A stretch of DNA of 64,000 nt. It comes from Octopus sinensis (taxonomy: Eukaryota). This document shows positions 21,933 to 63,396 of this stretch, piece by piece. Position numbers and translations under genes: made by a program. The stretch is from NCBI RefSeq assembly GCF_006345805.1, contig NC_043011.1:32810464-32874463 (forward strand), written 5' to 3'. Under the pieces are notes generated by a model. That model was not told where the DNA came from. It was given only the letters and a program-made list of their open reading frames with translations, and searched no databases. Every line of letters begins with the position of its first letter. The first letter of the stretch is position 1.

Positions 21933-22501
21933 GGTATCCTCGATTGAGGACATTCCCTCATTTTTACATCTCCCTGGCTTCTTTCTCTCTGATGACGGTG
22001 TGCTCAGCTTATGGGGTCCTTATTCAATATTATGATCTACTTGCTTGGCTATTCTTGAAACAGCTGTAAGAGACTCTGTATACTCTTTTACTTGTTTCAG
22101 GCATTTTACTGTGGCCATGCTGGAGCACCGCCTTTTAGTTGAACAAATCGAACCCCAGGACTTATTCTTTGTAAGCCTAGTACTTATTCTATCGGTCTCT
22201 CTTGCCAAACCACTAAGTGACGGTGACAAAAACACACCAGCATCGGTTGTCAAGTGATGTTGGAGGGACAAACACAAACATATACATACATACGTACATA
22301 CATACATATATATATATATATACGATGGGTTTCTTTCAGTTTCCGTCTACCAAATCCACTCACAAGGCTTTGGTCAGCCCGAGGCTATAGTAGAAGACAC
22401 TTGCACAAGATGCCACTCAGTGGGACTGAACCCAGAACCATGTGGTTCATAAGCAAGCTACTTACCACACAGCTACTCCTGTGCCTGTAAAGATAATGAA
22501 T

Positions 22502-22619
22502 GCTTACAGCACCTAGGTTTCCCAAGCGGTCACCCACCTAAGTACTAACTAGGCTCGACGTTGCTTAACTTTGGTGATCGGACAAGAACCGGTGCTTTCA
22601 ATGTGATATGGCCATAAGC
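22502..22619 (-). pseudogene. 5S rRNA pseudogene, copy 1
   Basis: Reverse complement reads GCTTATGGCCATATCACATTGAAAGCACCGGTTCTTGTCCGATCACCAAAGTTAAGCAACGTCGAGCCTAGTTAGTACTTAGGTGGGTGACCGCTTGGGAAACCTAGGTGCTGTAAGC. This is a full-length 5S with box A and C, apparent CpG-decay substitutions and no oligo-T terminator. Confidence 0.9.
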
Positions 22620-23410
22620 ATATGTTCAACTGGTACTTATTTTATCCACCTTAAAAGGATGAAAGGCAAAATTGACCTTGGCAGAATTTGAACTCAGAAC
22701 GTAAAGACAAATGAAATGCTGCTAAGCATGTTGACTGGCACAGTAATGATTCTGCCAGCTTGCTGCCTTACATATAATTCAGGTGTTCTTATCCAGTAAG
22801 TTCACTGTCAATCAATTCATCACAGGGAAAATTCACCATCATCAACTCATCATTTTTTTTTATAAAATAGTTTCTAACTATTAGTGGTAAGATACTACAG
22901 ATATATATTCCCAGTAAACTTTCCTCACGGTGAACTTACCTCACAGTGTCCAAAATTAAGGGAAGAAGCTTGTCAGTTATTCACGGGGCCTCTCCGTGAG
23001 TGTCCATATAGAAGGGGCTGTTTGTTATTTAGAAAAGGATCAACATAAATAACTCCATCTTACTATTACAGCGTTTCCTGCTTGGATGGCTGGATGTTTA
23101 GTGTAAATCTTTGACGTACCACCTTGGGCAAGTATCTTCTACTACAGCCTCGGGCCGACCAAAGCCTTTTGAGTGGATTTGGTAGACGGAAACTGAAAGA
23201 AGCCCATCGTATATATATATATATATATATACGACGGGTTTCTTTCAGTTTCCGTCTACCAAATCCACTCACAAGGCTTTGGTCAGCCCGAGGCTATAGT
23301 AGAAGACACTTGCACAAGATGCCACTCAGTGGGACTGAACCCAGAACCATGTGGTTCATAAGCAAGCTACTTACCACACAGCTACTCCTGTGCCTGTAAA
23401 GATAATGAAT

Positions 23411-23528
23411 GCTTACAGCACCTAGGTTTCCCAAGCGGTCACCCACCTAAGTACTAACTAGGCTCGACGTTGCTTAACTTTGGTGATCGGACAAGAACCG
23501 GTGCTTTCAATGTGATATGGCCATAAGC
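23411..23528 (-). pseudogene. 5S rRNA pseudogene, copy 2
   Basis: Same sequence as copy 1, offset 909 bp within the tandem duplication. Confidence 0.9.
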
Positions 23529-41034: not shown

Positions 41035-41395
41035 CCAATATCTATAAATGCAGATAAGTTTACAGTTTATTTCTAAATCTCTCAGAGAGATTTATGCAGT
41101 AGCAACATGATAAAGTGATAGCATGTTGTCAATTTAATGTGACAGTGCCATAAAAGGGAAGAATGCTACTGTTATTTAGCCCTAGGAAACACCGTTTCCT
41201 GTTGGACTTGAAACATTTCCTGCGTCCTTATGTTTTCAAAGTGGAGACAAGCACCTCTGCCCAGCAAAACCAGCATCCAGAGACTAGTTTAGAAATATGT
41301 TATTTCTATTTTCAAAAATCAGTGAATGCATTTCACTTGAAATATATATGTGTTCAAAGGCGGATAGGCATCGACAGCTAGCAAGCCATGCTACT

Positions 41396-41436
41396 CCGGA
41401 CTGATGATGAGCAATAACTCTGAAACTAGTCTCTGG
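41396..41436 (+). ncRNA. minimal type I hammerhead ribozyme motif, copy 1 (predicted cleavage after C41431)
   Basis: ccgga-CTGATGA-t GAG caataa CTC t-GAAA-ctag-TC-tctgg. Helix I ccgga/tctgg, helix II GAG/CTC (U.U at its base), helix III with palindromic CTAG, GUC triplet. Confidence 0.72.
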
Positions 41437-41668
41437 TGCTGGTTTTGCTGGGTGGAGGTGCTTGTCTCCACTTTGAAAACATAAGGACACAGGAAATGAT
41501 GTTTCCTAGGGCTAAATAACAGTAGCATTCTTCCCTTTTATGGGGCTGTCACATTAAGTTGACAACATGCTATCACTTTAAGTTTACAGTTGTTTATCAC
41601 TTGTTATTCACTTGAAATATATGTGTTCAAAGATGTTTAGGCATCGACAGCTAGCAAGCCATGCTACT

Positions 41669-41709
41669 CCGGACTGATGATGAGCAATAACTCTGAAACT
41701 AGTCTCTGG
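41669..41709 (+). ncRNA. minimal type I hammerhead ribozyme motif, copy 2 (predicted cleavage after C41704)
   Basis: Identical to copy 1, 273 nt downstream. Confidence 0.72.
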
Positions 41710-41941
41710 TGCTGGTTTTGCTGGGTGGAGGTGGTTGTCTTCACTTTGAAAACGTAAGGACGCAGGAAATGATGTTTCCTAGAGCTAAATAACAGTAGCA
41801 TTCTTCCCTTTTATGGGACTGTCACATTAAGTTGACAACATGCTATCACTTTAAGTTTACAGTTGTTTATCACTTGTTATTCACTTGAAATATATGTGTT
41901 CAAAGATGGATAGGCATCGACAACTAGCAAGCCATGCTACT

Positions 41942-41982
41942 CTGGATTGATGATGAGCAATAACTCTGAAACTAGTCTCTGG
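41942..41982 (+). ncRNA. hammerhead motif copy 3, C3U variant (TTGATGA), probably impaired
   Basis: ctgga-TTGATGA-tgagcaataactct-GAAA-ctag-TC-tctgg, 273 nt after copy 2. Confidence 0.55.
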
Positions 41983-42277
41983 TTGCTGGCTTTGCTGGGT
42001 GGAGGTGGTTATCTCCACTTTGAAAACATAAGGACACAGAAAATGTGGCAAGTCCAACAGGAAACAATGTTTCCTAGGGCTAAATAACAGTAGCATTCTT
42101 CCCTTTTATGGGACTGTCACATTAAGTTGACAACATGCTATCACTTTAAGTTTACAGTTGTTTGTCTGAAAGCTTTAGCAGTGGAGATCACAGATGATAT
42201 ATAAACATCTTATTGTTCTTTGAGTAAGTAGTAAAATAACCAAAAATCCTGTTACAGATTTCAGAGGATTGCTTCCT

Positions 42278-45524: not shown

Positions 45525-45535
<11 letters not shown>

Positions 45536-45896
45536 AATAGTAAAAAGTGCAAAAACTACAGAAGGCTTGTTTTAAAAGGTTAAAAAATATATATTTGAGT
45601 CAATATGTCTGAAGAATATTATAAATTTTTTTCTTACAATGACATAGTTTAGAAGAAATGACCGGTTTGCGTTCAGCTTTTCAAACATAACGATGTAAGA
45701 AATTTGAAAAGCTGAACGCGAAACCGGTCATTTCTTCTAAACTATGTCATTGTAGGAAAAAAATTTTTAATATTCTTCAGACATATTGACTCAAATATAT
45801 ATTTTTTAACCTTTTAAAACAAGCCTTCTGTAGTTTTTACACTTTTTACTATTTTCTATATATTCAACCAAGTTCTTTCACAAACCAACTTTCTCA

Positions 45897-45898
<2 letters not shown>
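45525..45898 (+). mobile_element. ~160-bp-arm palindromic element with a central hammerhead motif, inserted in (TA)n; Penelope inverted-pLTR-like
   Basis: 45525-45685 is a near-perfect reverse complement of 45703-45862, with a 17-nt spacer. A ~36-nt extra tail follows on the right arm only. (TA)n lies on both sides. Confidence 0.8.
45697..45736 (+). ncRNA. minimal type I hammerhead motif with U3-A8 core variant (predicted cleavage after C45729)
   Basis: aagaaat-TTGAAAA-GC tgaac GC-GAAA-ccgg-TC-atttctt. Perfect 7-bp helix I, 2-bp helix II, palindromic CCGG helix III, GUC triplet. Confidence 0.68.
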
Positions 45899-45955
<57 letters not shown>

Positions 45956-46074
45956 ATGTATATGTATACCCAGTGTATTCTTCAATTTGTTTGAAGATCA
46001 TGAGTTCAAAACTGGTGTTCCTTGTTCCTAGTAAAGGAAAACAAAAATCAGTAATAATATAAAATTCTTTTTAT

Positions 46075-46475: not shown

Positions 46476-46912
46476 ATGTTATCTATTAATATTGGTGACT
46501 TTAGAGAGTTTGGTTTTGATTAGGCTGTAGTTTCTAGCTGATCAAGTAACCACATATTAATGATATTATATACTGTACTGTATTATGTTATATCATACGA
46601 TATTGTACTGTGTGGCATTTTATGAATTAGTATTTTTTTCTTGTCTAAAAGTCATACTATATTACTCTTGACTTTGACTGAAAAATCTGGGGTGTGACCT
46701 ATATTCTGGGAAAAGTGAAAAATGAATGGGGTATGGTCTATACATGAGTAAATATGATATATTGCATTTTATTTTGAGTTTAACAGTCTGGCAAAATGAT
46801 ACTATTCTACCTCAGTAATTAATTTCAGAACTTATAGACTTGTAAACTTAACTTGTTCTGTATATTTAGGTGAAAACCAGTTTGGACTTAATGCTTCTGG
46901 CTTTTTTTTGAA

Positions 46913-46950
46913 ATGCCATCAAACCAAATTCTTGAAATACTTCTGCAAAG
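46913..46950 (+). CDS. C2H2 zinc-finger gene, first coding exon (exon 46870-46950; MPSNQILEILLQ-R)
   Basis: Acceptor tatatttag|G at 46869/70 and strong donor AAG|gtaaga at 46950/51. ATG 46913 has in-frame upstream stops and is followed by 38 nt (phase 2). AG+G gives Arg and continues exactly in the frame of the 55754 exon (ADFEKSVTMNG). Confidence 0.72.
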
Positions 46951-49900
46951 GTAAGAAATTGTTTACATATTAAACATTACCTTGTGTGCGCATGTGTGTA
47001 TGTGTCAAGGGGAGAGTGTATGCATTTGTATGAGTGATTAGAGGTTATTGTGTTTGTAGGCCAGAGTTTCATGTCTTGTTGACAAACGTTTTCTATGTAA
47101 TCAGGTAAAACTCTTTGCATGTTGGTATCTATCTTACTTGAAAGTGTGTAGGGAAGCTAGCATGTGATGGATTATCTTTCCCGCCTAGATTCCTTCCTTC
47201 CTTCATTCGTTATCTTTTGATCAAACATCACTTGAGTGTAGAATATCTTAAGTGAGATTATTGGTCGAGTAGGACTGAGTAGATTGACAGCCTAGGATAA
47301 AGAGATAGATTTTGGTGGAACATAAAATCACAAATTCTATGAGGTTGTGTTGGAATCTACTACAGCTTTCAAGGCACTTAACAACTCATGGTAATCATCA
47401 TCAGTTACCATCATCATCATCATCGTCGTCGTTTTAATACCTGTTTTTTTTTCATGCTGGCGTGGGTTGAATGAGACCTAATGAGGTAGGGCTCTACAGT
47501 TGGGTGCCCTTTCTTTTACTGATTCTTGTTTCCTTTAGTCTTTCATTCCCCACCCCCACCCTCTCTCTCTCTTTATGTGTGTACATATATATTTTTTTAT
47601 TCTTTTACTCATTTTGGTTATTTGACTGTGGCCATGCTGGTGCACCACCTTGAAGGGTTTTAGAAAGACAAATTGACCCCAGGACTTATTTCTTAAGCCT
47701 AGTATTTATGCTATCGATCTCTTTTGCCTAACCACTAAGTTATGGGGACATAAACACACTAACACCAGTTGTCAAATGGTGATAGACAGGTATATTTAAT
47801 GCACAATATATGGATTTATCTAATCTGGGGATACTCATGAGAGAGATCCTTCAGTGGACCAGGCTACAAACCACATAGTAAACCAGTACATTTTTATATG
47901 CGTATATTGTAGGATGGATGATATTCTATAAATCTGATAAGCTAGCCTTCTATATTTGTATTAGCGTGTAGAATGTACAATACTATTATATAATTTATAA
48001 CATATACCCTAGTGCAAACATCATCATCGTCATCGTGTAACGTTCACTTTCCATGCTGGTATTATACACTAAAATAAATTCTTTTCCCATGATGTTGGCT
48101 GTGAAATGCTCAACATTTTATGGATATCAACTGATGAAATGAAATATATTTATTTCATACCTCCTGACTTTCTATATATTCCACACATAAATATCATCAT
48201 CATCATCATCATCATCATCATTTAACGTCTGTTGTCCATGCTGGCGTTGGTTGAACAGTTTGACCGGTGGTACGTAAAATGCACCCACTACACTCTCGGA
48301 GTGGTTGGCATTAGGAAGGGCATCCAGCTGTAGAAACCTTGCCAGATCAGATTGGAGCCAGGTACTGACTACTACTATCACTGCTGCTGCTGCTACTACT
48401 ACTACTACTACTACTACAACAACACACTCTTTGTTGTTCATATACAGGGTGGATGGATGCTGCTGGAAAGACTGAACACATCTCACTTCTCTCTATCCTC
48501 TTTGGTCTTATATCCTTAACATTGGGGTGTTGATAGTGGTGGGCACCGGTGGTGGTGGTGGTGGCAATTGCAGCTGTGGTTGTTTTGGTGGTGGGGAAGA
48601 GGAAGAATGATAGATAAGATTGATAAAATCAAAAATATTAACAATGAGTATATTGAGTACAGTGTTCTGGTGCACTACAACTCATCGAAAAATTTCACGA
48701 ACTGTTACTGAGAGTTTCACATGACTGTTCATCAGGCATTTGTGATATATATGAGTGTGTTGTTAAGTAGCCTGCCTCCCAGCTATGTGGTTTCAGGATT
48801 AATCTTACCATGTGGCATCTTGGCCAAGTACCGTTTGCTATAGCCCTGGCTTGACCAAAGAGCTGTAAATGCAACTTGGTAGATGGAAACTGGGAGAAGC
48901 TTGCTGTATGTGTGTGTGTGTGGTGGGTTACCTCATCTAGACATCACGTGATGGTTGTAAATGAGCATCACTGTCAAACAAGTGATGTTCTTTGTTCGCA
49001 GTCTTTCATGAAAAACATATCTGGCCACAGGAAAGTATTACTTTACCTGGAAGCAGGAAAGGCGGCGAGCTGGCAGAATCGTTAGCATGCTGGGCGAAAT
49101 GCATAGTGGTATTTCATCTGCCGCTTTGTTCTGAGTTCAAATTCTGCCGAGGTCGACTTTGCTTTTCATCCTTTCGGGGTCGATAAATTAAGTACTAGTT
49201 ACGCACTGGGGTCGATATAATCGACTTAATCCGTTTGTCTGTCCTTGTTTGTCCACTCTGTGTTTATCTCTTTGTGGGTAGTAAAGAAATAGAAAGGGTC
49301 AGTGACAACAAGGACATCTGGCTAAGGAAAACCTGCTTCTAAAAACTCTGTCTGACCTATGCCAGCATGGGAAGAAGTGGACATGATGATGATAATGGTA
49401 TATTCAAAAGGAGCTTTAATTAAAACCTAACTGCATCTTTTATTCCCTTATTACTTACACATGATTCTAAAATAACCCACACCCCTTCAGTGGGGCACGC
49501 ACCCCTTTTTTGAGAAACAATGATACATGACTTCAAACAAAAGGGTCACATAATATTGATAGTAGGCTGTTTGCTGATAAGGGTTTTACTGTTTCATTTG
49601 ACAGACGTGGCTGTGGGGTAAGGAGTTTGCTTCCCAACCATATGGTTCCAGTTTCAGTCCCACTGCACAACACCTTGGGCAAGTCTCTTCTATGTCCTTG
49701 GGCCAACCAAATTCTTGCAAGTGGATTAGGTAAATGGAACCTGAAAGAAACTCTTTGTATATACATACAAATACACATATGTGTGTTTGCCTTCAACCCC
49801 CACCACCAACTACTTGACATCCAATGTTAGTTTGTTTATATCCCTGAAACTTAGTTTGGTAACAAATTCCAATAGAATAAGTGCCAGACTTTAAAAAAAG

Positions 49901-51806
49901 ACAGTACCAGGGCTGATTTGTTCAGCTAAACTTTTCAAGGTGGTGCCTCCACAGGGTAAAATATCAAGATGCTGTGTGTGTGTGTGTGTGAATGCTTACA
50001 TATGTATAAAGTGTGTGTGTGTGTATGTATGTTGTGTCTCTGTCTTAACATCACAGGAGAGTTTTAAATGAGAATCACAATAATTTCAAGCGCAGGAAGA
50101 CTCGTTCCCAGTCTTCCTTGGAAAACATGTCCAGTCAAAGGAAACATTACCCTGTTCCGAAACAGGTGAGGCTTAGCCACAGGAAGGACATCAGGTTGCA
50201 GAAGATCTTTCTCAATGAACTCCACCTGATCCATGCAAGCACAGAAAAGCGGACATTAAAAATAACGATGATGATGATGACGATGATGTATCCATGTAAG
50301 GATCATTATGAAATATAATATAGCCACAGCCATTTGCTCCCGCATCACATACAAGAACTCGCCCTCAGTTTCGGTAGCAGGCTTATCAATAAACAACGTT
50401 CACAAACTACTTTTATTATTCGTAAAAAAAAAATTTCAAGGCGGCGAGCTGGCAGAATCGTTAGCATGCTGGACAAAAAAAAAAAAAGGCTTAGCAACAT
50501 TTTGTCTGTCTTTACGTTATGAGTTCATATTCCGCGGAGGGTTGACTTGGCCTTTTATCCTTTCAGGAGTCGATAGAAAAGTACCAGTTACGCAGTGAGG
50601 TCAATGTAATCGACTAGCTCTCTCCCACAAAATTTCAGACCTGTGCCTGTAGTAGAAAAGGTTATTTATAAATAATTTCATAAAAAATGCTTTTTACCTA
50701 AAATTTGTATGAAAAAGATTTAACACTAAATTAGGGGTGCAACTTATATACGAGTAAATACGTGAATTTAAAGTTACGTTGGTAATGAGATACCTGAGCT
50801 TGGCTCTTTTTTTCAATCAAGTAACTCAATTCTATACAGCTTTTAAAGCGGCATACCTGTATATTAGTCTCAACTGATGGCGTTGCACTAAATTTATTTT
50901 TTAATTGTAAACATTGTCAGGAACCCTTGTTTACAATAAGCGGATGGGAACAGCAAATGGCTCTCCACTCGTTTTATAGACGTGCTGTTGTGTTTCTATA
51001 AAATGGTTGCATTTAGTTGGTTACGTAGCTCAGGGCTGCTAGGATTACTTGTACAAAAGTTGGAGAAACCCCTGAAAGAGAAAAATGGTTTTATATTAGC
51101 TTGTGTTATGTCCCCTGAACAAGGTACATAACTCTACTTTCTCCCTTTTGACTGATTGACATGAAACGAAACTCTCAACTTCATGGTTGAGTGGTTAGCA
51201 ATAGGAAAGGTCACCCACTTGTAGAAAAACAGCAAAAACAAAAAAAAAAGGAACAGAAAATAAATATAGGTGTAGGAGTGGCTGTGTGGTAAATAGCTTG
51301 CTTACCAACCACATGGTTCCGGGTTCAGTCCCACTACGTGGCACCTCGAGCAAGTGTCTTCTACTGTAGCCTCGGACCGACCAAAGCCTTGTGAGTGGAT
51401 TTGGTACCGAAAGAAGCCCGTTGTATATATGAATATATATATATATATATACGTCACGATGTGTTACCGCTACTGTATATAACTCACTTTGATATTTATC
51501 ATTGTTTGATTTCACTTTTTCAATATCAGCAACAGTGGGCGCTGGAAAAAGTATAAGTATTTGTGAAGGAAATCTAATTCTCGGCGACAACTATGATTGT
51601 CACACGCTGACGAGAGGTCAATACCTTGAAACTCGAGTCCGTGTGTATCATAAGTTGAAGACGGGAAGGATGACTTCCCTTTGCAAATACTGACAGGACA
51701 CAGAAAGTGTGTCTATGGCCAGCTGGAGGAGTGTGTCCTCCTGGGGCTAAAAACTACAGTAGCATCCACCCTTAGGGGTTAGCCATATTGAAATGGCAAA
51801 AATACG

Positions 51807-51852
<46 letters not shown>

Positions 51853-52349
51853 CGTGTGTGTATGAGAATGAGGGATATGACAGTGACTTATTATTATTAT
51901 TATTAGTAGTAGTAGTAATTGTAGCAGTAGTAGTATTTTGGTTCTGCCAGTAGTAACTTGCAGAATCGTTAGCATGCCGAATGAAATGCTTAGCAACATG
52001 TCATCTGCCGCTATGTTCTAAGTTCAAATTCCACTGAGGCTGACTTTGCCTTTCATCCTTTCAGGGTCGATTAAATAAGTGCCAGTTACGCACTGGGTTC
52101 AATGTCATTGACGTAATCCCTTCCCCCAAATTTGAGGCATTAAGGTGGAAAGCTGGCAGTATGTCATCTGTCACAACATTCTGAGTGCAAATTCTGCCAA
52201 GGTTGACTTTGCCTTTCATCCTTTCGGAGACGGTAAACTAGATACCAGTTGAACACTGGGTTCAATGTAATTGACTTACCCCTCCCTCAAAATTTCAGGC
52301 CTTGTTCCTATAGGAGGAAAGACTATTATTATTATTATTATTATTATTA

Positions 52350-52391
<42 letters not shown>

Positions 52392-52696
52392 CATTATTAT
52401 TGTTATCATCATTATTATTATTAAAAGTTTTTCTTTGGTAGTTTTATGTGAGTTTCTGTTGTGTCACCTGGTGTATTCCTATATTCTTGAGGTGTGTACA
52501 GCATCATATTCCTGTTTTCTAGGGGAATGGAGGAGTGTAGACTCCACCTGTTGCTGTACTCCATCAGAATATTTTATTGTGGGGGTTTAGTTTCTTGTTT
52601 TATTTGAGTGCATTCTGTTGTGCATGGTGTGTACAGTGTTACCTTTTTGGGGCCTTAAGCTTCTTGTTGTTGATGCTGTTGTTAACATTATAATTA

Positions 52697-52699
<3 letters not shown>

Positions 52700-52733
<34 letters not shown>

Positions 52734-53002
52734 CATTAATATGATTATAGACATCATACAGTTTACAATATTGTGAGGTTGTTGATTGAAGATATTGTGC
52801 CTACTGGGGGTTTGCACTGTTTGTCAAGTCACAACAAGGACCTCAAACAGACAGTACTTTATGCAATATGCGTGCAATTCTAAGTAATGCTGACTTTTGC
52901 AATACATCTAGATTATAGGGTATTTCTAAGGTTTTCAAATGTTTTTTTTTTTTCAGATTGGGTGGTATTGAACCCAGTGCTCCGATTACAACAGAGATAA
53001 CC
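52700..53002 (-). mobile_element. R4/Dong-like non-LTR retrotransposon 3' end with (TAA)n tail
   Basis: Minus strand reads approximately ISVVIGALGSIPPNL..HLKTLEIPYNLDVLQKSALLRIARILHKVLSV* (stop 52843-45), typical of the R4/Dong C-terminus; ends in TAA repeats. Confidence 0.72.
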
Positions 53003-55753
53003 CCTTATGTTCGACTCATAAAGGTTATCCGTATTGTCATTTGAGCATTAGGTTCAGTACCACCCAACCTGAAAAAACATCTGAAAAATTATTATTATTA
53101 TTATTTAGGTGGTGAGCTGGCAGAATCGATGGCATGCCAGGCAAAATGCTTAGCGGCATTTCATCGGTCTTTATGTTCTGAGTTCAAATTCTTTGCAGGG
53201 TTGATAAAATAGGTACCAATTGAATACTGGGGTCGATGTAATTGACTTACCTCTTCTCCTGGGCTTGCTGACCTTGTGCCAAAATTTGAAACCCGTTTTT
53301 ATTAAGACAACGAGGTGGCAGAATCGGTATGTCAGACAAAATGTTAAGTGAAGCGATATTTCTTTTGGCTTCACTTTCTGAGTTCAAATGCTGCAAAGGT
53401 CAGCTTTGCCTTTCATCCTTTTGGGGTCAATAAAAGTAATGGGGGTTGATATAATTAAGTAAGCCCCTCCTTCGAAAAGAAAAAAACCCTGGCCTTATTA
53501 TTGATGATTGGTGATGATGATGACGATAATGACAACAGTGGGATGATGATAATGATGATGAAAATTATAACGCTTATTAAGATTATGATTATCTCTGGAA
53601 TGTATATTTTCAGTATTTATATTTATTCTATATTTACCTGTGAATGACATGAGATAGATTGGTTTTTTTTTCTTCTTGTTTTTATGTTTTACCTACAAAA
53701 GAACTCCATGTGTTTTTTTTTTCATGTGACCCACACTGACTAATGCATGAGAGTCTTTCTGCTGGGATTTTGTGATGGGGAGAGGAACATTAGACCTCTG
53801 CCTCTCTCATACACACACACACATATACACACTCACATAACATACACAATGCAACAAAAACATGGAGTAAGACAATTTGATTCAGCAGTTTGGACATTAG
53901 CAATTTGGCACAGCTAACTGGACAATGAACCTATTTCGGTGACAGTACTTTTTAGCACTAGAGGCAAACACACACTCACACACACACATATATACATGCA
54001 TGCACATAATCATACACATGCATATAGTGAGAGGGAGAGGAAGAGAGAGATATGTTATAATCTATTAATTGAACATGATTGATATAAATTTTTCCGTTCT
54101 CTTCATAAACATGAAAAAGAAATATGCTTACACATAAACGCAGAAACAGAGATGAAGAGAATGAGATGCGTTAAAATGTCTGATGTTAAATAAGTCAGCA
54201 CTGAATCAGCTATGCCAAATGGGTTGGTTCACATTACTCTATAATGAGCATAGGGCTGGTTTCCAAGTTTCTCTGACATATATATTCATCCCTGAATGGA
54301 ATGCTGGTCCATTGCAGAGTCACTCAGTTTTTCTAGCTGAGTAAACTAGAGTAATATGAAATGAAGTGTTTTTCTCAAGAACACAATACATCAACTGGTC
54401 CAGGAATCGAAACCACAATCTTATAATCATGAGTGTCCGATACCCTAACCACTAAGCCATGCACATTTACTTATGCCAAATAGATGGTGACAAAATGTCT
54501 CATGCACAAAAATGTATATATCTTGATGTGACATTTCTACATAGTTATAACCTCAGAAGCCAATCTGCTCATCACAAAAAGAAACAGTAATTGCTACCAA
54601 TATTTGAACAGGTAATGAGGACAAAAAGAATTTGTGACCACCTGAAACAACACATAAGCTATGAGAATAGATGAAGGTGATGAAAAGCTAATAATAGAGA
54701 TGAATGATGTTGACATGATTTTTTTTGGGGGGGGTGTTTTCTTTTTAGAAAAATGAATATTTAGTAAAAACAAAAATGTATGTTTTATGTGTAAAACTTA
54801 AGGTGTCATGTTCAGAAGGATTTTGTCCATCTTTATGTTCTGAGCTCAAATTCTACCAAGGTTGACTTTGCCATTCATCCTTCCAAAATCAATAAGTTGA
54901 GCATTGAGGTCGATGTAATTGATTTACATGATCTCCTGAAATTGCTGGCCTTGTACCAAAATTTGAAATCAGTATTATATATAGCTCTCAAGGCATGAGC
55001 AGGCAGAATTGTTAACATGCCAGGCAAAATGTTTAGCGATATTTCGTTTGTCTTTACATTCTGAGCTCAGATTCTGCTGAGGTCGACTTTGCCTTTCATT
55101 CTTTTGGGAGTCAATCGAACTGGGGTCGATGTAATCAGCTTCCCCATTTCCTTGAAATTGCTAACCTTCTACCAACATTTGAAATCAATATTATTATACA
55201 CAGCCATTGTATAGAAGAACATTTGTAACTCTAACTTCTGAGCACCAGTAAAAAGAATACTCTTCGTGTTACACAAACATAGTTTTGAAATCTGAACATT
55301 TTTTTTTTTTTGCCACTTTTACATTTTTGCTAACTCTGCTGAAAAACATTAGTAAATTTTTTTTTTTTTGTTTACTGTTCGTCCCAGAATTTGGTTGAAG
55401 TATTTATTAAATGGTTCTTTCAACAAATAACACTTTCTGTCACGTTGTAGGTACCTAATTTTTATTCCTGTTACAATCTTAAATTCACAATATGATTTCC
55501 ATTTATCTTTTCTGATATCATCTTTTTATAGTATATTATATCATACAAAAGGGTTTCAACATATAGGACCTTTTCCTTAATATATTTTATGTATTCCAAC
55601 TTCCAAAAGCTGTGCCTTTTTTTTTTTTTTGTCTCAAAAATCCTTAGAATTTTGGGGTTTCTTTTCTATTTTTTTTTTTGTACCTTTCTTTTCAATTTAG
55701 TTTATATAACTTTTATTTCCCCTTTTTTCTTCATTGTTTTCTCAAATTTATAG

Positions 55754-56344
55754 GGCTGATTTTGAAAAAAGTGTAACAATGAATGGAACAGCAATATCTG
55801 ATGCAGATATTATGGCTGAATCATATGCAGATCCAGGTTCAGGCTTGCCTCCTGGGGGAGGCCCGCCACCTCCACCACCACCACCATCTATATCTGGCAG
55901 CTCCGTCCTACCTCCTGGTGCTCTCAACCAAACTTCTGCGACCAGTGGAGGTGGTGGTGGGGCTAGTGGTGTTAGCAGCAGCAGCAGCAGTAGTAGTAGT
56001 AATGGTGGCATTGATGGTGGTACTGGTGGCGGCGGCGGCAGTGGTGGTGGTAGTGGTGGTGGTGGCGGAGGCAGCGGAGTAGGAGGTGGTGGAGGAGGAG
56101 GAGGTGGCGGAGGAGGTGGTGGAGGTGGAGGTGGTGGAGGAGGTGGAGGAGGAGGAAGCGGTGTAACCAATACGAATGATATACCTGAAAATGGTTGTGC
56201 TTTAAGTGTGCTACCGCCTGGTGCACTGACCGTGTCAAACCTTTGTGAAAATGGTGCTTTGTCTAGTAACGGAAGTCCGGGTTGTCTAATGAACAGTAGT
56301 GGAAGCCCTGGATCTCGTATCACTTGTCGATTTTGTGGTAAACG
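55754..56344 (+). CDS. C2H2 zinc-finger gene, Gly/Pro/Ser-rich exon ending in the first half of finger 1 (ITCRFCGKR)
   Basis: Long pyrimidine tract then tttatag|G acceptor at 55753/54. Stop-free GC-richer frame (track ORF 55734-56348). Donor CG|gtaagc at 56344/45, phase 2. Confidence 0.93.
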
Positions 56345-57291
56345 GTAAGCATATTTTAATTCAACCCTGTATTTTATCTTGTCGTAATTTCGAGTGAAAC
56401 GAGTTACTGTTTTGTATGGAAGTGTAAGGTTTGTCTTATAAGCTATAACTAGTTCGTTGAAAGATTAATTAAAATCCTGTAGACAAAGTTTCAGAGGCCT
56501 AGAAAAAGGATGAGGGCTTTTAAATTAGACTCTGTTGTAGACATTATTATTCTTTGAATCGATCTAAGTTTATAACGTAGGCCATTAGACTATAAACTGA
56601 AGGACTCACTGGTCATGTCCCATAACCACCACCACAATGTGTTCACAGCCAAGGCGCATAACTCTTGCTGGCTCAGTCCACCTAGCTGTAAATGGATACC
56701 ACCATGGGTGGGGTAATCAGCAGCAGGTTGTAACATTTAATAAGTTTCTCTTTAACTTTTGGTACTGTATTCAAATCTTTCCATTGTTATAGCTTTAACT
56801 AACAGACATCCAGACTGGCCATACCTGCCCCAGATACTCTACCTGTCTTATATTCAAACTGGCCGGATCTGGCCTCTCGCACCTACCCTACAACATCATT
56901 CTAACAATAAATCGCATCATTGAAATCCTACGTTGTTTTATGTTGAAGCTGACCATATCTGGCCTCTCACACCTGCCTATATTATCATTCTAGAAATAAA
57001 CAATCACATCATTGAAATCTCAAAGCTACAAGATAATGCATGATTAATTCAAAACACTGTGGATGAATAAACATTTCATTTGACAAAGTAATCTGAATAC
57101 TAAAAGCTTAATAGGAGTGGCCGCTCTGGCTGGCTAATTTCTCCTAGATACACCATGCAGAGAGTAAAGTTTTCAAGTAATAGACACTGTGACTCACAAT
57201 CCTTCATAAAACCTGATTGTGTATTTTTCCTTCTTCACAACAGGCCTCATATTGGTTTATATTCTACTATACATCTTTAATATTATACATC

Positions 57292-57833
<542 letters not shown>

Positions 57834-59046
57834 GTGTATATATATATATATACATACATGTATGTATATGCATATATGTACAGATAGATAGATAGATATA
57901 GCTAGAAGCTAGCTTTTAGCTCACAATGACAAATATAATCTTATAAACATTCTTTTCTCTTGTTTTGATATGTGTTGAAATTTTTAAATGTATTTTTTTT
58001 CTCTGTGTGTGTGTGTGTAAAAAGATTATATTACCAACCATGATGATATTACATACACATTTATGCATCCATTTGCATCACACATGCACACAGCATACAC
58101 ATATACATATAGATATACATACATATACACGCACACACATCAAAGGTGATGCTCCAGCATGGCCACAGTCAAAAGACTGAAACAAGAAAAAGAATAAAAG
58201 AATGTATGTGCATGCACACACACATATACACACTCACACATACCCAATGATGGATTCTTTATTGAATGCAATCAAGGACAACCTTTCTCGACATGTGGGC
58301 CACATGAGATATGGCTCATCATCAAGTGGGCTGCACCACAAGAAAAAAATTCTTGGGGAATTCTTCATTCAGAAAGTTCCAAGAGCCACAGTTTGCCCAT
58401 GACTGATTCAGTTGCTTGACACACTAGAAACAGCAGCCAAATCTCTCTCTCATATCATATTTTACCATCTTAGAAAGAAAGGTAAAAAATGTAAGACTAT
58501 GTTTGATAATCTGGCTCTAGATATGTTATGTTTGAAACAAAACAAAAATGATACAGTCATGGCTGGATTGTCTTGAATTATAGATCTGATCAATTATTAC
58601 TAGCCTAAGCAATCATGATGGTGATATATTTCATCACTGGTTTCTATGGTGACCATTCCATTTTCCCAATTCAACTAAACAAGGGAACTATTGTATTATT
58701 AAATGGCTGAGAGAAGCGGTAAGCTGGCAGAATTGTTAGCATGCTGGACAAAATGCCTTGTGGCATATCATTCTTCTTTACATTCTGAGTTCAAATTCCA
58801 CTGAGGTCAGCTCTGCCTTTCATCCTTTCTGGGTCAATGAAATAAGTACCAGCCAACTACTGTGGTTAATGTAATCAGCCTCACCCTGCCTGTACATTCT
58901 GAGTTCTAATCTTGTGGAGGTTGACTTTGCCTTTCATCCTTTCGGTGTCAATGATATAAATACCAGTTGAACATTGGGGTCAAAGTAATTGACTTACTCC
59001 TTCCTTAAAACTATGTCAAAATTTGAATCCATTATTATTATTATTA

Positions 59047-59091
<45 letters not shown>

Positions 59092-59329
59092 CATTATCAA
59101 TGCTGAAGGCAGCGAGCTGGCAGAAACGTTAGCACGCCAGGTGAAACTCTTAGCGGTTTTTCATCTGTCTTTGTGTTTTGAGTTCAAATTCCGCTGAGGT
59201 CGACTTTGCCTTTATGTCCTTTTGGGGTCAATAAATTAAGTACCAGTTGCATACTGGGGTCGATCTAATCGACTGGCCCCTCCCCCCAAATTTTGGGCCT
59301 TGTGCCTAGAGGAGAAATGATTATTATTA

Positions 59330-59377
<48 letters not shown>

Positions 59378-59379
<2 letters not shown>

Positions 59380-59927
59380 GAGTGAGAGAATAGTGCATAC
59401 CATCAAAGTGACTCTGGGGTACAAATATACGAAGCCCAATATATCCATCATGACTACTCGTCTGATAAGGGTACTCCAGGCACATGCATCACAACCATAT
59501 GTGCACGATATGGTGATCTCATACCAAGATAAACAGCACATGACCTGGCAGGTGGGGCCCAGTTAGAATTTTCTTCAGGTCAGATAGCCCATCCCGCTCA
59601 AAAGGTCCCTGAATAAGGCTTGTTTAAGGATGTTGAACAAAACATCCATGTTTCCCTAAGCTAATTATTCAAACCCCAAAGAACTCCTCTCAGCACATGC
59701 TCCCCCACTACTTCTGCTCATGATCAGAGATGCACATACCGTCAGCCACTAAGGGACATGCTCAACTGGCTACGGTCAAACAACTGACAAGCAAATCTGT
59801 GGTATTGAGCAGAATATTTGCTGTAGCCCATCTTTCATACCAAGACAAAACAATGTACATGATAACACTCCCAATCAGTTAAGATCAAAAGCCATGAGAG
59901 CCATTGCCTGGTGCTGCATCAAGGCAT
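59378..59927 (-). mobile_element. non-coding interspersed repeat inserted in (TAA)n; second, internally deleted copy at 60683-60973
   Basis: Both copies begin tgagtgagag right after (TAT)n and end near ggt(a/g)ctgcat before more TAT repeats. Confidence 0.7.
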
Positions 59928-60172
59928 TTATTATCATTAGACGAGCTTGCAGAATCATTAGCATGCACAGCAAAATGCTTACCACATTTTGTCCACCTTT
60001 ACGTTCTTAGTTTAAGTTCCACCAAGGTTGGCTTTGCCTTTTATCATTTTGGGGTTGATAAAATAAGTACCAGTTAAGTACTGGGGTCAATATAATTGAG
60101 TAGTCCCCCACTTCCACCAAAATTTCTGGCCTTGTGTTTTTAGTAGAAAGGATTACTATTATTATTATTATT

Positions 60173-60600
60173 CATCATCATCATCGTCGTTTAACGTCCG
60201 TTCTCCATGCTAGCATGGGTTGGACGGTTCGACCGGGGTTCTGGGAAGCCAGAAGGCTGCACCAGGCTCCAGTCTAATTTGGCAATGTTTCTACAGCTGG
60301 ATGCCCTTCCTAACGCCAACCACTCCGTGAGTGTAGTGGGTGCTTTTTACGTGCCACCTGCACAGGTGCCAGGCGGGGCTGGCAACGGCCACAGTCAGAT
60401 TGGTGTATTTTATGTGCCACCGGCACGGAAGCCAGTCGAGGCGGTGCTGGCATCGGCCACGAGTCGGATAGTGCTTTTTACGTACCACCAGACCAGGGAT
60501 CCTGGCTGGTTCAATTCGATTTCGATTTCGCTTGCCCCAACATGTCTTCACAAGCAAAGGGGGTTGGCAAGGGTGCCTGTCGTACGGTCGCATTGGAGTA
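60173..60600 (-). mobile_element. family C retroposon ((GAT)n tail; GGCGTTAGGAAGGGCATCCAG core) with ~62-68-bp internal tandem units
   Basis: Close relative at 42278-42760. Shorter copies at 10680-10860, 12690-12930, 15133-15293, 18498-18680, 25893-26036, 32890-33342, 36333-36610 and 43921-44140. Confidence 0.82.
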
Positions 60601-60652
60601 TTTTACGTGCCACGGCTTATTATTATTATTATTATTATTATCATTATTATTA

Positions 60653-60684
<32 letters not shown>

Positions 60685-62094
60685 GAGTGAGAGAGCAGTA
60701 CATGCCATCATAGTGACACTGGGGTAAAATATACAAAGCCCAGTATACCCATCTGATAAGGGTACATATATCATATATATAAGGGTGCACATATCGTCAG
60801 CCACTAAGAGACATGCTCAACTGGTTACAGTCAAACAACTGACTAGCAAATTTGTGGTATTGAGCAGAATATTTGCTGTAGCTCATCTTTTGTACCAAGA
60901 CAAAACAATGTACATGATAACACTCCCAATTAGTTAAGATCAGAAGCTTCAAGAGCTACTGTTTGGTACTGCATATTATTATTGTTGCTGTTGTTGTTGT
61001 TGTTATCATTATTATTATTAATATTGTTTAAGGCATTGAGCTGGCAGAATCATTAGCACGCCAGACAATATGTTCAGCTGCATTTTATCTGACTTCATGT
61101 TCTGAGTTAAAATTCCGTCAAGGTTGACTTTGCCTTTCATCCTTTTGGGATTGATAATATAAGTATCAGCTGAGTACTGGGGTCAGTGTAATCAGCTCGC
61201 ACCCACTCTACTAAAATTTCAGGCCCTGTACCTATTAGCAGCATTTTGTCCATCTTGGTGTTGTGTTCAAATTCTGCTGAGGTCGACTTTGACTTTCGTC
61301 CTTTTGAGATTGATGAAATACTAGCCAAGCACTGAGGTTGATGTAATCGACTAGCCCCCTCCTGCCAAAATTTAAAATTTTGAGCCCATTGTAGAAAGAA
61401 TTGTTATTATTTAAGGTGGTGAGCTGGCAGATTTTTTTAGCCCTCCAGACAAAATTCTTAGCCATGTATTTCGTCCATGTTTATGCTCTGGGTTCAAATT
61501 GTACTGAGGTCGACTTTGACTTTTTATCCTTCAGGATTGATAAAATAAGTACTAGTTGAGAACAAAGGGTAGATGTATTCAACTTAACCCCCTTCTTCAA
61601 AATTGCATGCCTTGTGCCAAAATTTGAAACCATTATTGTTTAAATCCCATGGAGGTCGGCTTGGTTTTTCATCATTTCAGAATCGGTAAAATAAGTACCA
61701 GTCAAGCACTTGACTGAATGTGATTGACTAGCCCTTTACCCCACTTCTCTCAGAATTTTAGGACCTATGTCTATAATAGAAACGATTATCAAGTGACTGA
61801 GTATTCCACAGGCAATGTAATATTCAGGTTGAAGCAGCAGGTGACAATGGGTGTGATGAGGGTGGACTGTTTTAATTATTTGGTACCGTCCATCCAATGA
61901 GTTGTCTCTTAAGTTTCAGTTCGTCCACTTTAAATTACAAGATTTGGTTTGATCTGAAGCTAAGTTAAAAACAACCTGCCCAAGTTGACATGCTGTGAAA
62001 TTGAACCCAGAACCTCATACTTGCAACGTTAAGTTCTTAGTCATTCAGCCATGACCGTAATAACACACAATTACACATTCACTTGCATACGTCA

Positions 62095-62373
62095 CATGCA
62101 TGATGCACACATTCACACATACATACCTCACATACACACACATACACACCTCACATACACACACATACACACCTCACATACACACAAACACCAAATGCAT
62201 ACACTTTCTCTCTCTCTCTCTTTCTCTCATGTACACGCATAATATATACACACACTTTCTCCTTCTCTCTCTCTCTCCACAAACACAAACACACAAACCA
62301 TACACACACAGTGTCTCTGTCTCACACACACACACACAACAGACATATTTACTCTATCTCTCTCTCTCTCTCA

Positions 62374-62407
<34 letters not shown>

Positions 62408-62862
62408 GCATGATAGATACACTCACTCTTTCTTTTTCACAAACACACTCACACACACACAGCAGACATACTCTCACACTCTCTCTCACACAAACACACA
62501 CACATGGACTCATACACACACACACACAACATACATACACTCTCTCTCTCTCACACCACACACACACACACACAACAGACATACTCTCACTCTCTCTCTC
62601 TCACACACACACACAGCATGACATACATACACTCACTCTTTCCCTTTCACACACACACACAACATACATACACTCTCTCTCTCTCTCTCTCTCTCACCAC
62701 ACACACACACACACAACATACATACTCTCACACTCTCTATCTCTCTCTCTCTCACACACACACAGCATGACATACATACACTCACTCTTTCTCTTTCACA
62801 CACACACAACATACATACACACCCTCTCGCTCTCTCACACGCACACACACTCACACACACAC
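62095..62862. repeat. compound (CA)n/(CT)n low-complexity satellite
   Basis: Direct inspection; ends ~65 nt before the 62927 acceptor. Confidence 0.92.
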
Positions 62863-62926
62863 AGTAATTTTGATATTCATTTGGTTTTAATAATGCCTTT
62901 TTCCTCCCTCTGACCTTCAAACCTAG

Positions 62927-63284
62927 TTTTTCCCAATCTGGTTATGTGAAAGCTCATGAGCGTATCCATACTGGAGAGAAGCCGTTCCATTGCTCTGTAT
63001 GTGGTAAGCAGTTTAGTGATCCCAGCAACTGGAAGAAGCATGAGAGGGTGCATACTCGTCAGATGTCAGAAGCAACTGATGAAAAATCTCATCTGCTCAA
63101 GCAAAGTATCAATAATTTGCCGTCCTTGGTACAGCCACGCCGGATTAAAGCGGAGTCGCCATCAAATACCTGTAAGATTTGTGGCAAGATGTTCTCTAGT
63201 CAAAGCAGTCTAGCCACACATAGACGTATTCATACTGGTGAGAGGCCTTACAAATGTTTGACTTGTGGGAAAGCTTTTACACAG
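62927..63284 (+). CDS. C2H2 zinc-finger gene, finger exon: completes F1 ([14 protein letters not shown]), F2 CSVC..HERVH, F3 CKIC..HRRIH, start of F4 [10 protein letters not shown]
   Basis: Acceptor acctag|T at 62926/27 in phase 2 (CG+T = Arg) rebuilds [27 protein letters not shown]. Canonical TGEKPF/TGERPY linkers. Donor CAG|gtatct at 63284/85, so the gene continues beyond the window. Confidence 0.96.
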
Positions 63285-63396
63285 GTATCTCTCTGTTTTT
63301 CATAACTTTTCTTTCATTTTATAAAAAAAACTTTTTTTATGTGTTTATATAAGACATGGTGTTGTGTTTTCCAAAGGGTAAAAGATGCTGTTGTTA

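What the first reader, a model, noticed from the sequence alone, without database searches (positions are those of the whole stretch)
45525..45898. 340-bp palindrome centred on a hammerhead with a compensatory U3-A8 core
Seen: ~160-bp inverted arms with a 17-nt spacer. The right arm starts with aagaaat-TTGAAAA-GCtgaacGC-GAAA-CCGG-TC-atttctt, whose 7-bp helix I is completed by the spacer. Known: C3-G8 is a Watson-Crick tertiary pair, and U3-A8 is a tolerated natural variant that a CUGANGA search misses. The left (minus-strand) copy begins at the core and lacks G12 and the 5' helix I strand. Inference: this is a Penelope-type inverted pLTR insertion whose antisense arm can sequester the ribozyme in a long hairpin, ~1 kb upstream of the ZNF start exon and on the gene's strand. 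It is unrelated in sequence to the 41 kb family.
Basis: partly seen in the sequence, partly recalled or inferred. Interest (0 to 1): 0.82.

Follow-up and report, generated by a model that had tools for sequence, protein, structure and literature searches.

The report
Inverted Penelope retrotransposon stub with hammerhead
The palindrome is an ordinary, truncated head-to-head insertion of a young, high-copy Penelope-like retrotransposon, whose end repeat carries a small hammerhead motif that is likely a dimer-dependent ribozyme; nothing found suggests a role for the neighbouring gene.

Summary
In detail: two arms 97.5% alike over 161 columns, a 17-nt spacer, a minimal type I hammerhead with U3-A8, and a left copy that lacks G12.

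The palindrome is one copy of a young Penelope-like element (PLE) family. A 23-nt piece has 1,422 exact matches in the genome. Longer copies carry RT and GIY-YIG coding sequence upstream, and full-length copies have pLTR-ORF-pLTR structure.

Head-to-head copies are routine here. In 27 of 30 such pairs one arm ends at +134 and the other at +170, as in the window. That 36-nt difference is the known PLE tail.

U3-A8 is family-wide. In 87 foreign PLE loci, all 26 hammerhead motifs on the element strand pair positions 3 and 8 (19 C-G, 5 U-A, 2 other), so the motif is conserved. U3-A8 and inverted pairs in PLEs are already in print.

Sequestration by the antisense arm holds in folding models but is a by-product: the monomer is not predicted to fold, there is no partner copy in the window, and the arms show private mutations. 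One modest extra: arm 5' ends are about 2.5-fold enriched just upstream of the hammerhead (post hoc).

New member of a known kind; low interest.

The parts
45526..45686 (-). Inverted, 5'-truncated copy of the PLE 3' end (element positions -26 to +134 relative to the hammerhead cleavage site); short end, merges into (TA)n; G12 deleted
45684..45899 (+). Direct, 5'-truncated copy of the PLE 3' end/pLTR (-46 to +170); long end; 97-98% identical to the top paralogues
45684..45686 (.). 3-nt microhomology (AAA) shared by both arms at the head-to-head junction
   Evidence: alignments overlap by 3; sequence
45687..45703 (+). 17-nt spacer: ordinary family sequence upstream of the core, including the 5' strand of helix I
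45697..45736 (+). Minimal type I hammerhead motif: 7-bp helix I, U3-A8 core, 2-bp helix II, palindromic ACCGGU helix III, predicted cleavage after C45729; predicted to fold as a dimer
45864..45899 (+). 36-nt PLE tail between the two fixed family ends (+134 and +170), present on the right arm only
   Evidence: PMC8557442, PMC11167929
45455..45532 (.). Left flank: (TACA)n then (TA)n microsatellite, the likely target site
45899..45968 (.). Right flank: (TA)n then (TGTA)n microsatellite; no target-site duplication discernible
   Evidence: I3
46870..46950 (+). Context only: candidate exon (AG acceptor, ATG at 46913, GT donor) of a C2H2 zinc-finger gene; predicted, no RNA support obtained

Best explanation
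The palindrome is a truncated head-to-head insertion of a young Neptune/Nematis-type Penelope-like retrotransposon in a (TA)n tract, likely made when both cut DNA strands primed reverse transcription at two sites 36 nt apart on the element RNA, and its hammerhead motif is the element's own, likely dimer-dependent ribozyme, carried here as a passenger. Shown: family membership, the RT/GIY-YIG coding region in longer copies, the two fixed ends, the short-plus-long end rule, (TA)n flanks, the 3-nt junction microhomology, and conservation with 3-8 pairing of the motif across PLEs. Inferred: GIY-YIG cleavage of both strands, two short cDNAs (160 and 216 nt) joined at their 5' ends, self-cleavage of the motif as a dimer in element transcripts, and neutral decay of this copy. 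If the locus is transcribed, the arms would form a long hairpin, a by-product without an evident role.
For: Copy number: 1,383 first-look candidates, 40 scored, best places at 97-98%; 686 exact hammerhead-pattern matches and 1,422 exact 3'-pattern matches, reversed controls 0. Coding region upstream in longer copies: FLDD, ADKG, C-X4-C-xx-C linker, GIY-YIG-like motif with CCHH; RVT_1 above the Pfam cut-off in 2 of 2 long ORF2 copies; 782 homologues, the listed ones mostly with RVT_1 and often GIY-YIG. L093 shows inverted copy + 5' pLTR + ORFs + 3' pLTR. 3' ends of 100 arms: 55 at +123 to +137, 43 at +165 to +170, 2 other. Of 33 distinct adjacent divergent pairs, 30 had both ends classifiable and 27 were short plus long. 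Hammerhead: 26 of 26 distinct motifs on the element strand of 87 foreign PLE loci have a Watson-Crick 3-8 pair, against 0.55 motifs per shuffle; helix II changes C-G to U-A in a sister subfamily; two copies cofold into the dimeric hammerhead at -13.3 kcal/mol, against a -3.0 misfold for one. Literature: PMC4209133 (U3-A8 in Schistosoma PLEs, opposite-strand pairs 100-700 bp apart, dimer requirement), PMC8557442 (inverted 5'-truncated copy, 30-40-bp tail), PMC11167929 (tail equals the distance between two RT start sites; both strands cut and extended).
Against: No cleavage data. GIY-YIG stays below the Pfam cut-off in the family's own ORFs (E 0.004-0.06). The nearest older sister family has mostly U3.G8 (19 of 25 copies; 3 C-G, which were the search seeds; 3 other) and a poor helix I, so strict 3-8 covariation does not hold in that lineage. 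Several subfamilies lack the base at 1.1 and have a U.U mismatch next to the core. No pile-up of 5' ends at the cleavage site in full-length copies: 28 of 30 loci called, starts from -980 to +147. Three of 30 pairs break the short-plus-long rule. The read call did not show the junction in any run. Five motifs also scored on the antisense strand of the foreign loci, one with a U-U 3-8 mismatch.
Confidence: 0.93

Rival explanations
1. The insertion has been co-opted: in the zinc-finger gene's pre-mRNA the antisense arm locks the ribozyme in a hairpin, and editing or unwinding would release cleavage and tune the gene.
For: The hairpin folds at -224.9 kcal/mol and sets helix I pairing to 0. The intact motif is on the gene's strand, 971 bp from a candidate exon with a splice acceptor.
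Against: The monomer is not predicted to fold even without the antisense arm. No partner copy in the window. The structure is a routine insertion product; L243, L249 and L313 on contig C1 also have both arms ending just upstream of the core. Both arms carry private changes (right 5 of 213 positions, left 2 of about 161). No RNA evidence obtained.
Confidence: 0.03
2. The palindrome is an assembly or library fold-back artefact.
For: Long near-perfect inverted repeat with mirror-image microsatellite flanks. No contig spanning the junction was listed.
Against: The arms differ at 4 of 161 columns, end at the two different family-specific ends, and have a family-derived spacer with microhomology. 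The same geometry recurs at 27 other loci with other junctions.
Confidence: 0.02
3. The insertion is a PLE copy, but the U3-A8 motif of this family is a weak or dead relic that transposition does not need.
For: No 5'-end pile-up at the cleavage site, and many full-length copies run through an intact upstream motif. A related family spread with U3.G8 and little helix I. Hammerhead mutants did not affect insertion in vitro for the anole PLE (PMC11167929). Minimal PLE hammerheads cleave poorly (PMC4209133).
Against: The core and ACCGGU are invariant between families whose ORFs are only about 50-69% identical. Compensated helices in subfamilies and foreign PLEs. 5 of 97 arms end at -2 to +3 (weak).
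Confidence: 0.25

Closest known systems
Neptune/Nematis-clade EN+ Penelope-like elements (as described in PMC8557442, citing Arkhipova 2006)
   Same: RT then C-terminal GIY-YIG with CCHH; CX2-5CxxC linker; pLTRs from partial tandems; inverted 5'-truncated copies; 30-40-bp tail; (TA)n targets; an ORF1 separated by a frameshift (listed as an option for PLEs in the Fig. 1 legend).
   Different: A family I could not match to a named entry. Neptune versus Nematis was not resolved because no reference set was held. The window copy has no coding sequence.
Minimal type I PLE hammerheads (Cervera and de la Pena 2014, PMC4209133)
   Same: Located in the pLTR; palindromic helix III; G10.1-C11.1; U3-A8 variant (about 1,300 hits in Schistosoma mansoni); opposite-strand pairs at short range.
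   Different: Here helix II is only 2 bp and helix I 7 bp, with no extra base between A9 and 10.1; their consensus has a 7-8 bp helix II and a 4-5 bp helix I. Foreign loci L125 and L130 share the short form with C3-G8.
Poseidon of Anolis carolinensis (Frangieh et al. 2024, PMC11167929)
   Same: Two adjacent internal RT start sites that define the tail; both strands cut and extended; AT-rich target; hammerhead not marking RNA ends.
   Different: Other clade, without the Cys linker. Its hammerhead overlaps the ORF start and has C3-G8. Here the two ends lie just before the ORF1 ATG and abut an imperfect direct repeat.
Retrozymes and satellite-type hammerhead repeats (recalled; seen only in search listings and review passages, PMC6765202)
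   Same: Non-coding repeat with a dimer-type hammerhead.
   Different: This sequence is the 3' end of an autonomous RT-encoding element, not a tandem non-autonomous unit.

Membership tests
EN+ Penelope-like element | PLE-type RT followed by GIY-YIG endonuclease in the parent element | tested here: met
   RVT_1 29.7 and 31.4 bits (cut-off 29.6) in two copies; GIY-YIG below cut-off in own copies but above it in homologue P0040 (45% identical); motifs visible
EN+ Penelope-like element | pLTRs: the 3' end repeated directly before the ORF in partial tandems | tested here: met
   28 of 30 ORF-start loci have the 3' end directly upstream; L093
EN+ Penelope-like element | Inverted 5'-truncated copy and a 30-40-bp tail on one end | tested here: met
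   36-nt tail; 27 of 30 classifiable pairs short plus long
EN+ Penelope-like element | Hammerhead motif in the pLTR | tested here: met
Neptune/Nematis clades | CX2-5CxxC linker between RT and EN; CCHH in EN | tested here: met
   C-X4-C-xx-C, then CxxC and two His in the EN region, read from the translation
Neptune clade | RT phylogeny groups with Neptune rather than Nematis | not tested
   No named reference sequences were held; (TA)n targeting fits Neptune per PMC8557442
Minimal type I hammerhead ribozyme | Core nucleotides and a Watson-Crick 3-8 pair | tested here: met
   U3-A8 with all other core bases canonical in the right arm; first 100 of 686 listed matches all U3-A8; C3 version 0 matches
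Minimal type I hammerhead ribozyme | Helices I-III supported by compensatory change | tested here: met
   9 hand-picked rows: 88.9% of cells paired, 8 of 12 pairs with double change, slid controls 36-52%; helix III invariant and so uninformative; old sister family does not pair helix I
Minimal type I hammerhead ribozyme | Self-cleavage after N17 | not testable with these tools
   Needs an assay; genomic 5' ends give no clear peak at +1
Rfam hammerhead families | Match to a curated covariance model | tested here: not met
   No hammerhead family at the gathering score or among 37 matches at E<=10; unsurprising for a minimal variant (inference)
Co-opted cis-regulatory hairpin | Conservation or transcription of this copy | tested here: inconclusive
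   Private changes in both arms; junction not covered in four runs

The most novel reading that the evidence does not exclude
Hammerhead-centred palindromes are a recurrent product of PLE integration. One dimeric RT-endonuclease particle primes each cut DNA strand at a different one of two duplicated TATATAT...CACGTG sites 36 nt apart, and the cDNAs tend to stop just 5' of the hammerhead, at the transcript start or after unwinding the ribozyme. This young family of about 1,400 copies would then be a natural record of the two-ended mechanism, and the U3.G8 sister family a possible intermediate between C3-G8 and U3-A8 cores.
Probability: 0.3. Interest if true: 0.5.

Novelty: new member of a known kind. 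Interest (0 to 1): 0.2.

Why it matters
For the locus itself, little: it is one of many such transposon remnants. For PLE specialists the family is a clean, large natural sample. The short-plus-long end rule (27 of 30 pairs) puts a number on the tail asymmetry and fits the two RT start sites shown in vitro for another clade. The foreign loci give direct 3-8 covariation for PLE hammerheads. The 2-bp-helix-II, U3-A8 motif is a compact test case for whether PLE ribozymes need a dimer and the element's protein. In practice, CUGANGA searches and Rfam miss such motifs, and the palindromes can be mistaken for microRNA-like hairpins.

Tried and rejected
1. Rfam gave no hammerhead match; its microRNA hits are below the gathering score and reflect the hairpin or microsatellites.

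2. Laying four runs on 45640-45898 did not cover the junction. X22 gave 0 reads; X1 and X2 hold the family in bulk; X11 holds only diverged pieces. Its variant table missed a known common variant in loop II, so I did not use it for core conservation. Artefact, polymorphism and expression remain untested by reads.

3. An apparent peak of 5' ends at -31 was an alignment artefact of a subfamily with different upstream sequence. A first correction ran across junctions and into (TA)n and was discarded. One search, with 18 natural direct copies as references, is the result used.

4. The idea that ribozyme cleavage sets the 5' end of full-length copies was not supported.

5. A C3-G8 form within this family was not found. 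A looser C3-G8 pattern found 3 places, all in an older sister family.

6. A stimulatory structure after the slippery site is no more stable than shuffles (-10.5 against -9.6 +/- 2.6); pseudoknots were not modelled.

7. A script to tabulate core variants timed out; counts come.

8. The Lunse, Weinberg and Breaker paper on dimeric PLE hammerheads is not held; I saw only its citation and summary in PMC6765202. It, and the supplementary alignments of PMC4209133, which I did not open, may already list this motif.

9. Earlier findings of the scan: nothing returned.

Full report
OBSERVATION. The reverse complement of 45526-45686 aligns to the right arm over 161 columns with 3 mismatches and a 1-nt gap. 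The right arm holds a minimal type I hammerhead: helix I 45697-45703/45730-45736, core UUGAAAA with U3 at 45704 and A8 at 45709, a 2-bp helix II, GAAA, the palindrome ACCGGU and C17 at 45729. The left copy begins one base before U3 and lacks G12. A descriptor scan found no comparable motif in 20 shuffles of the window. Rfam has no hammerhead match here. The host looks like an octopus genome (2.7 Gb, microsatellite-rich); that is my inference and was not tested.

A YOUNG REPEAT FAMILY. The right arm gave 1,383 first-look candidates in the genome, of which 40 were scored, the best at 97-98%. Exact patterns give 686 matches for the hammerhead and 1,422 for a 3' segment, with reversed controls at 0. 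In the 29 fetched paralogues the 'spacer' is ordinary upstream family sequence in 28 (one is cut there), and nearly all end at the base equivalent to 45899, followed by (TA)n.

THE PARENT ELEMENT. Longer copies continue upstream into a reading frame with ADKG and FLDD motifs, a C-X4-C-xx-C linker and a GIY-YIG-like domain with CCHH. RVT_1 passes the Pfam cut-off in two long copies; GIY-YIG stays below it in the family but passes in a 45%-identical homologue. A protein search returned 782 homologues among 8,000 scored candidates. In 28 of 30 loci picked on the ORF start, the element's 3' end lies directly upstream as a pLTR. L093 shows the full arrangement: inverted truncated copy, 5' pLTR, ORF1, ORF2, 3' pLTR. 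These are the features given for Neptune and Nematis PLEs in PMC8557442 (passages). I did not separate the two clades.

WHY A PALINDROME. Of the first 100 listed matches to the 3' pattern, 46 fall in 23 divergent pairs with gaps from 70 to 1,669 nt; the window's gap is 242 (counted by eye). I mapped 95 loci from contig C1 (40 picked on the hammerhead pattern, 53 on the 3' pattern, 2 held earlier) onto a natural full-length copy, numbering from the cleavage site. Among 100 arms, 55 end at +123 to +137, 43 at +165 to +170 and 2 elsewhere. Of 34 adjacent divergent pairs listed (33 distinct), 30 had both ends classifiable: 27 short plus long, 2 short plus short, 1 long plus long (that one a 5' pLTR running into its ORF). 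At even odds 27 of 30 has a binomial P of about 4e-6 (hand calculation). The window copy obeys the rule: -26 to +134 inverted, -46 to +170 direct, with 3 nt shared at the junction. In the tandem template both ends abut an imperfect repeat, TATATAT followed closely by CACGTG, 36 nt apart. PMC8557442 describes the inverted 5'-truncated copy and the 30-40-bp tail; PMC3846280 (passages) describes the tail on one of the inverted pLTRs; PMC11167929 (parts 1-2 of 4) shows that the tail is the distance between two RT start sites and that both target strands are cut and extended. I infer that each cut strand primed at one site and the two short cDNAs were joined head to head. PMC3846280 proposes self-priming on an antisense template as an alternative, which I cannot exclude.

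IS THE CENTRING SPECIAL? Partly. With 18 natural direct copies as references, 97 distinct arms (83 ends called, 14 censored) show 16 ends at -60 to -26 against 6.2 expected from the upstream baseline (Poisson P 8e-4, window chosen after seeing the data), 16 against 9.9 at +1 to +40, and no excess elsewhere. Both window arms fall in the enriched bin, and L243, L249 and L313 have the same geometry. A transcript start or RT drop-off just upstream of the motif could explain it; AT-rich microhomology bias could contribute. A sharper peak at -31 was an artefact, and one search was discarded. Full-length copies show no pile-up at the cleavage site.

IS THE HAMMERHEAD REAL? Within the family U3-A8 is fixed: all 100 listed of 686 matches have it, and the C3 form has 0 matches. 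There is therefore no covariation to see among close paralogues, but no independent drift either. A sister subfamily changes the second pair of helix II from C-G to U-A. In 87 foreign loci found by protein similarity, a scan allowing any base at positions 3 and 8 found 26 distinct motifs on the element strand: 19 C-G, 5 U-A, 1 G-C, 1 A-U, none mismatched; the antisense strand gave 5 and shuffles 0.55 per replicate. These motifs are related by descent, so they are not 26 independent events. L125 has the same 2-bp helix II and ACCGGU, with C3-G8 and a different, paired helix I, 121 nt after its ORF. On nine hand-picked rows, 88.9% of cells pair against 36-52% for slid controls. Against this, an older sister family in the same genome has U3.G8 in 19 of 25 copies and little helix I, and some subfamilies have a U.U mismatch beside the core. 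One copy of the motif misfolds at -3.0 kcal/mol; two cofold into the dimeric hammerhead at -13.3. PMC4209133 (parts 1-2 of 4) already reports U3-A8 in Schistosoma PLEs, opposite-strand pairs 100-700 bp apart, and low, dimer-dependent activity. PMC11167929 found the anole motif protein-assisted and dispensable for insertion in vitro.

THE HOST GENE. A candidate exon at 46870-46950 has an ATG whose phase fits an exon at 55754; zinc-finger exons follow at about 62.9 kb and beyond the window. The exon has an AG acceptor, so the palindrome may lie in a 5' intron; no RNA was available to test this. If transcribed, the arms would pair (-224.9 kcal/mol) and helix I would not form, but it hardly forms in the direct copy alone, and there is no second intact family copy in the window. 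Against the commonest letters of 29 paralogues, the right copy differs at 5 of 213 positions and the left at 2, including the G12 loss, which fits unselected decay. A fold-back artefact is unlikely given the arm differences and the family-specific ends, though reads did not cover the junction.

NOVELTY. Eight paper searches were run. They showed no description of this family or of a count for the short-plus-long rule, but subscription papers, repeat libraries, the Lunse et al. paper (not held) and supplements were not seen. Every component (PLE, inverted copy, tail, dimer-type hammerhead, U3-A8) is known. Verdict: new member of a known kind, interest 0.2.

Noticed in passing
L093:3370-3444 and 23 other own-genome copies; L125:1330, L126:586, L131:2917, L133:549, L135:1267, L180:936: The parent element has ORF1 (about 450 aa) overlapping the ATG-less RT-EN frame in -1. 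A U UUU UUA slippery heptamer is present in 23 of 24 distinct copies and at the same overlap in 6 of 14 foreign loci examined; three more (L127, L134, L205) have a similar FL/FF overlap. Likely a conserved -1 ribosomal frameshift. A frameshifted ORF1 is listed for PLEs in the Fig. 1 legend of PMC8557442.
   Followed up: partly
L100-L124 (G000, 184 candidates): Older sister PLE family (ORF about 50-69% identical) whose hammerhead core is mostly U3.G8 with almost no helix I: a possible wobble intermediate or a weak ribozyme.
   Followed up: partly
window 51601-51645 (+): A second hammerhead motif, C3-G8, with 6-bp helix I and palindromic ACUCGAGU helix III; parent element not sought.
   Followed up: no
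window about 54150-54203 (-): Candidate hammerhead with G3-C8, 7-bp helix I including G-U pairs and an AAUAUU helix III; may be chance, not checked.
   Followed up: no
window 41110-42166: The '41 kb family': three direct units about 274 nt apart plus an inverted copy, each with a CUGAUGA...GAAACUAGUC motif; looks like another PLE end with a C3-G8 hammerhead; no BLAST similarity to the 45.5-kb family.
   Followed up: partly
window 46870-63320 and L096:7924-9216: Multi-exon C2H2 zinc-finger gene with a Gly-rich exon; the last exon ends in two widely spaced fingers that recall Ikaros/Hunchback-type proteins (recalled, not tested).
   Followed up: partly
window 22501-22619 and 23410-23528 (-): Two identical 5S rRNA gene copies 909 bp apart.
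   Followed up: no
L205-L211; P0025, P0040, P0050, P0069, P0074: Animal-type PLEs sit in records labelled as bacterial genomes or symbiont proteins, likely host contamination of the bins.
   Followed up: no
window 45839 and its mirror 45550: Both arms differ from the family letter (T in 29 of 29 paralogues) at the same position, each with a different base.
   Followed up: no
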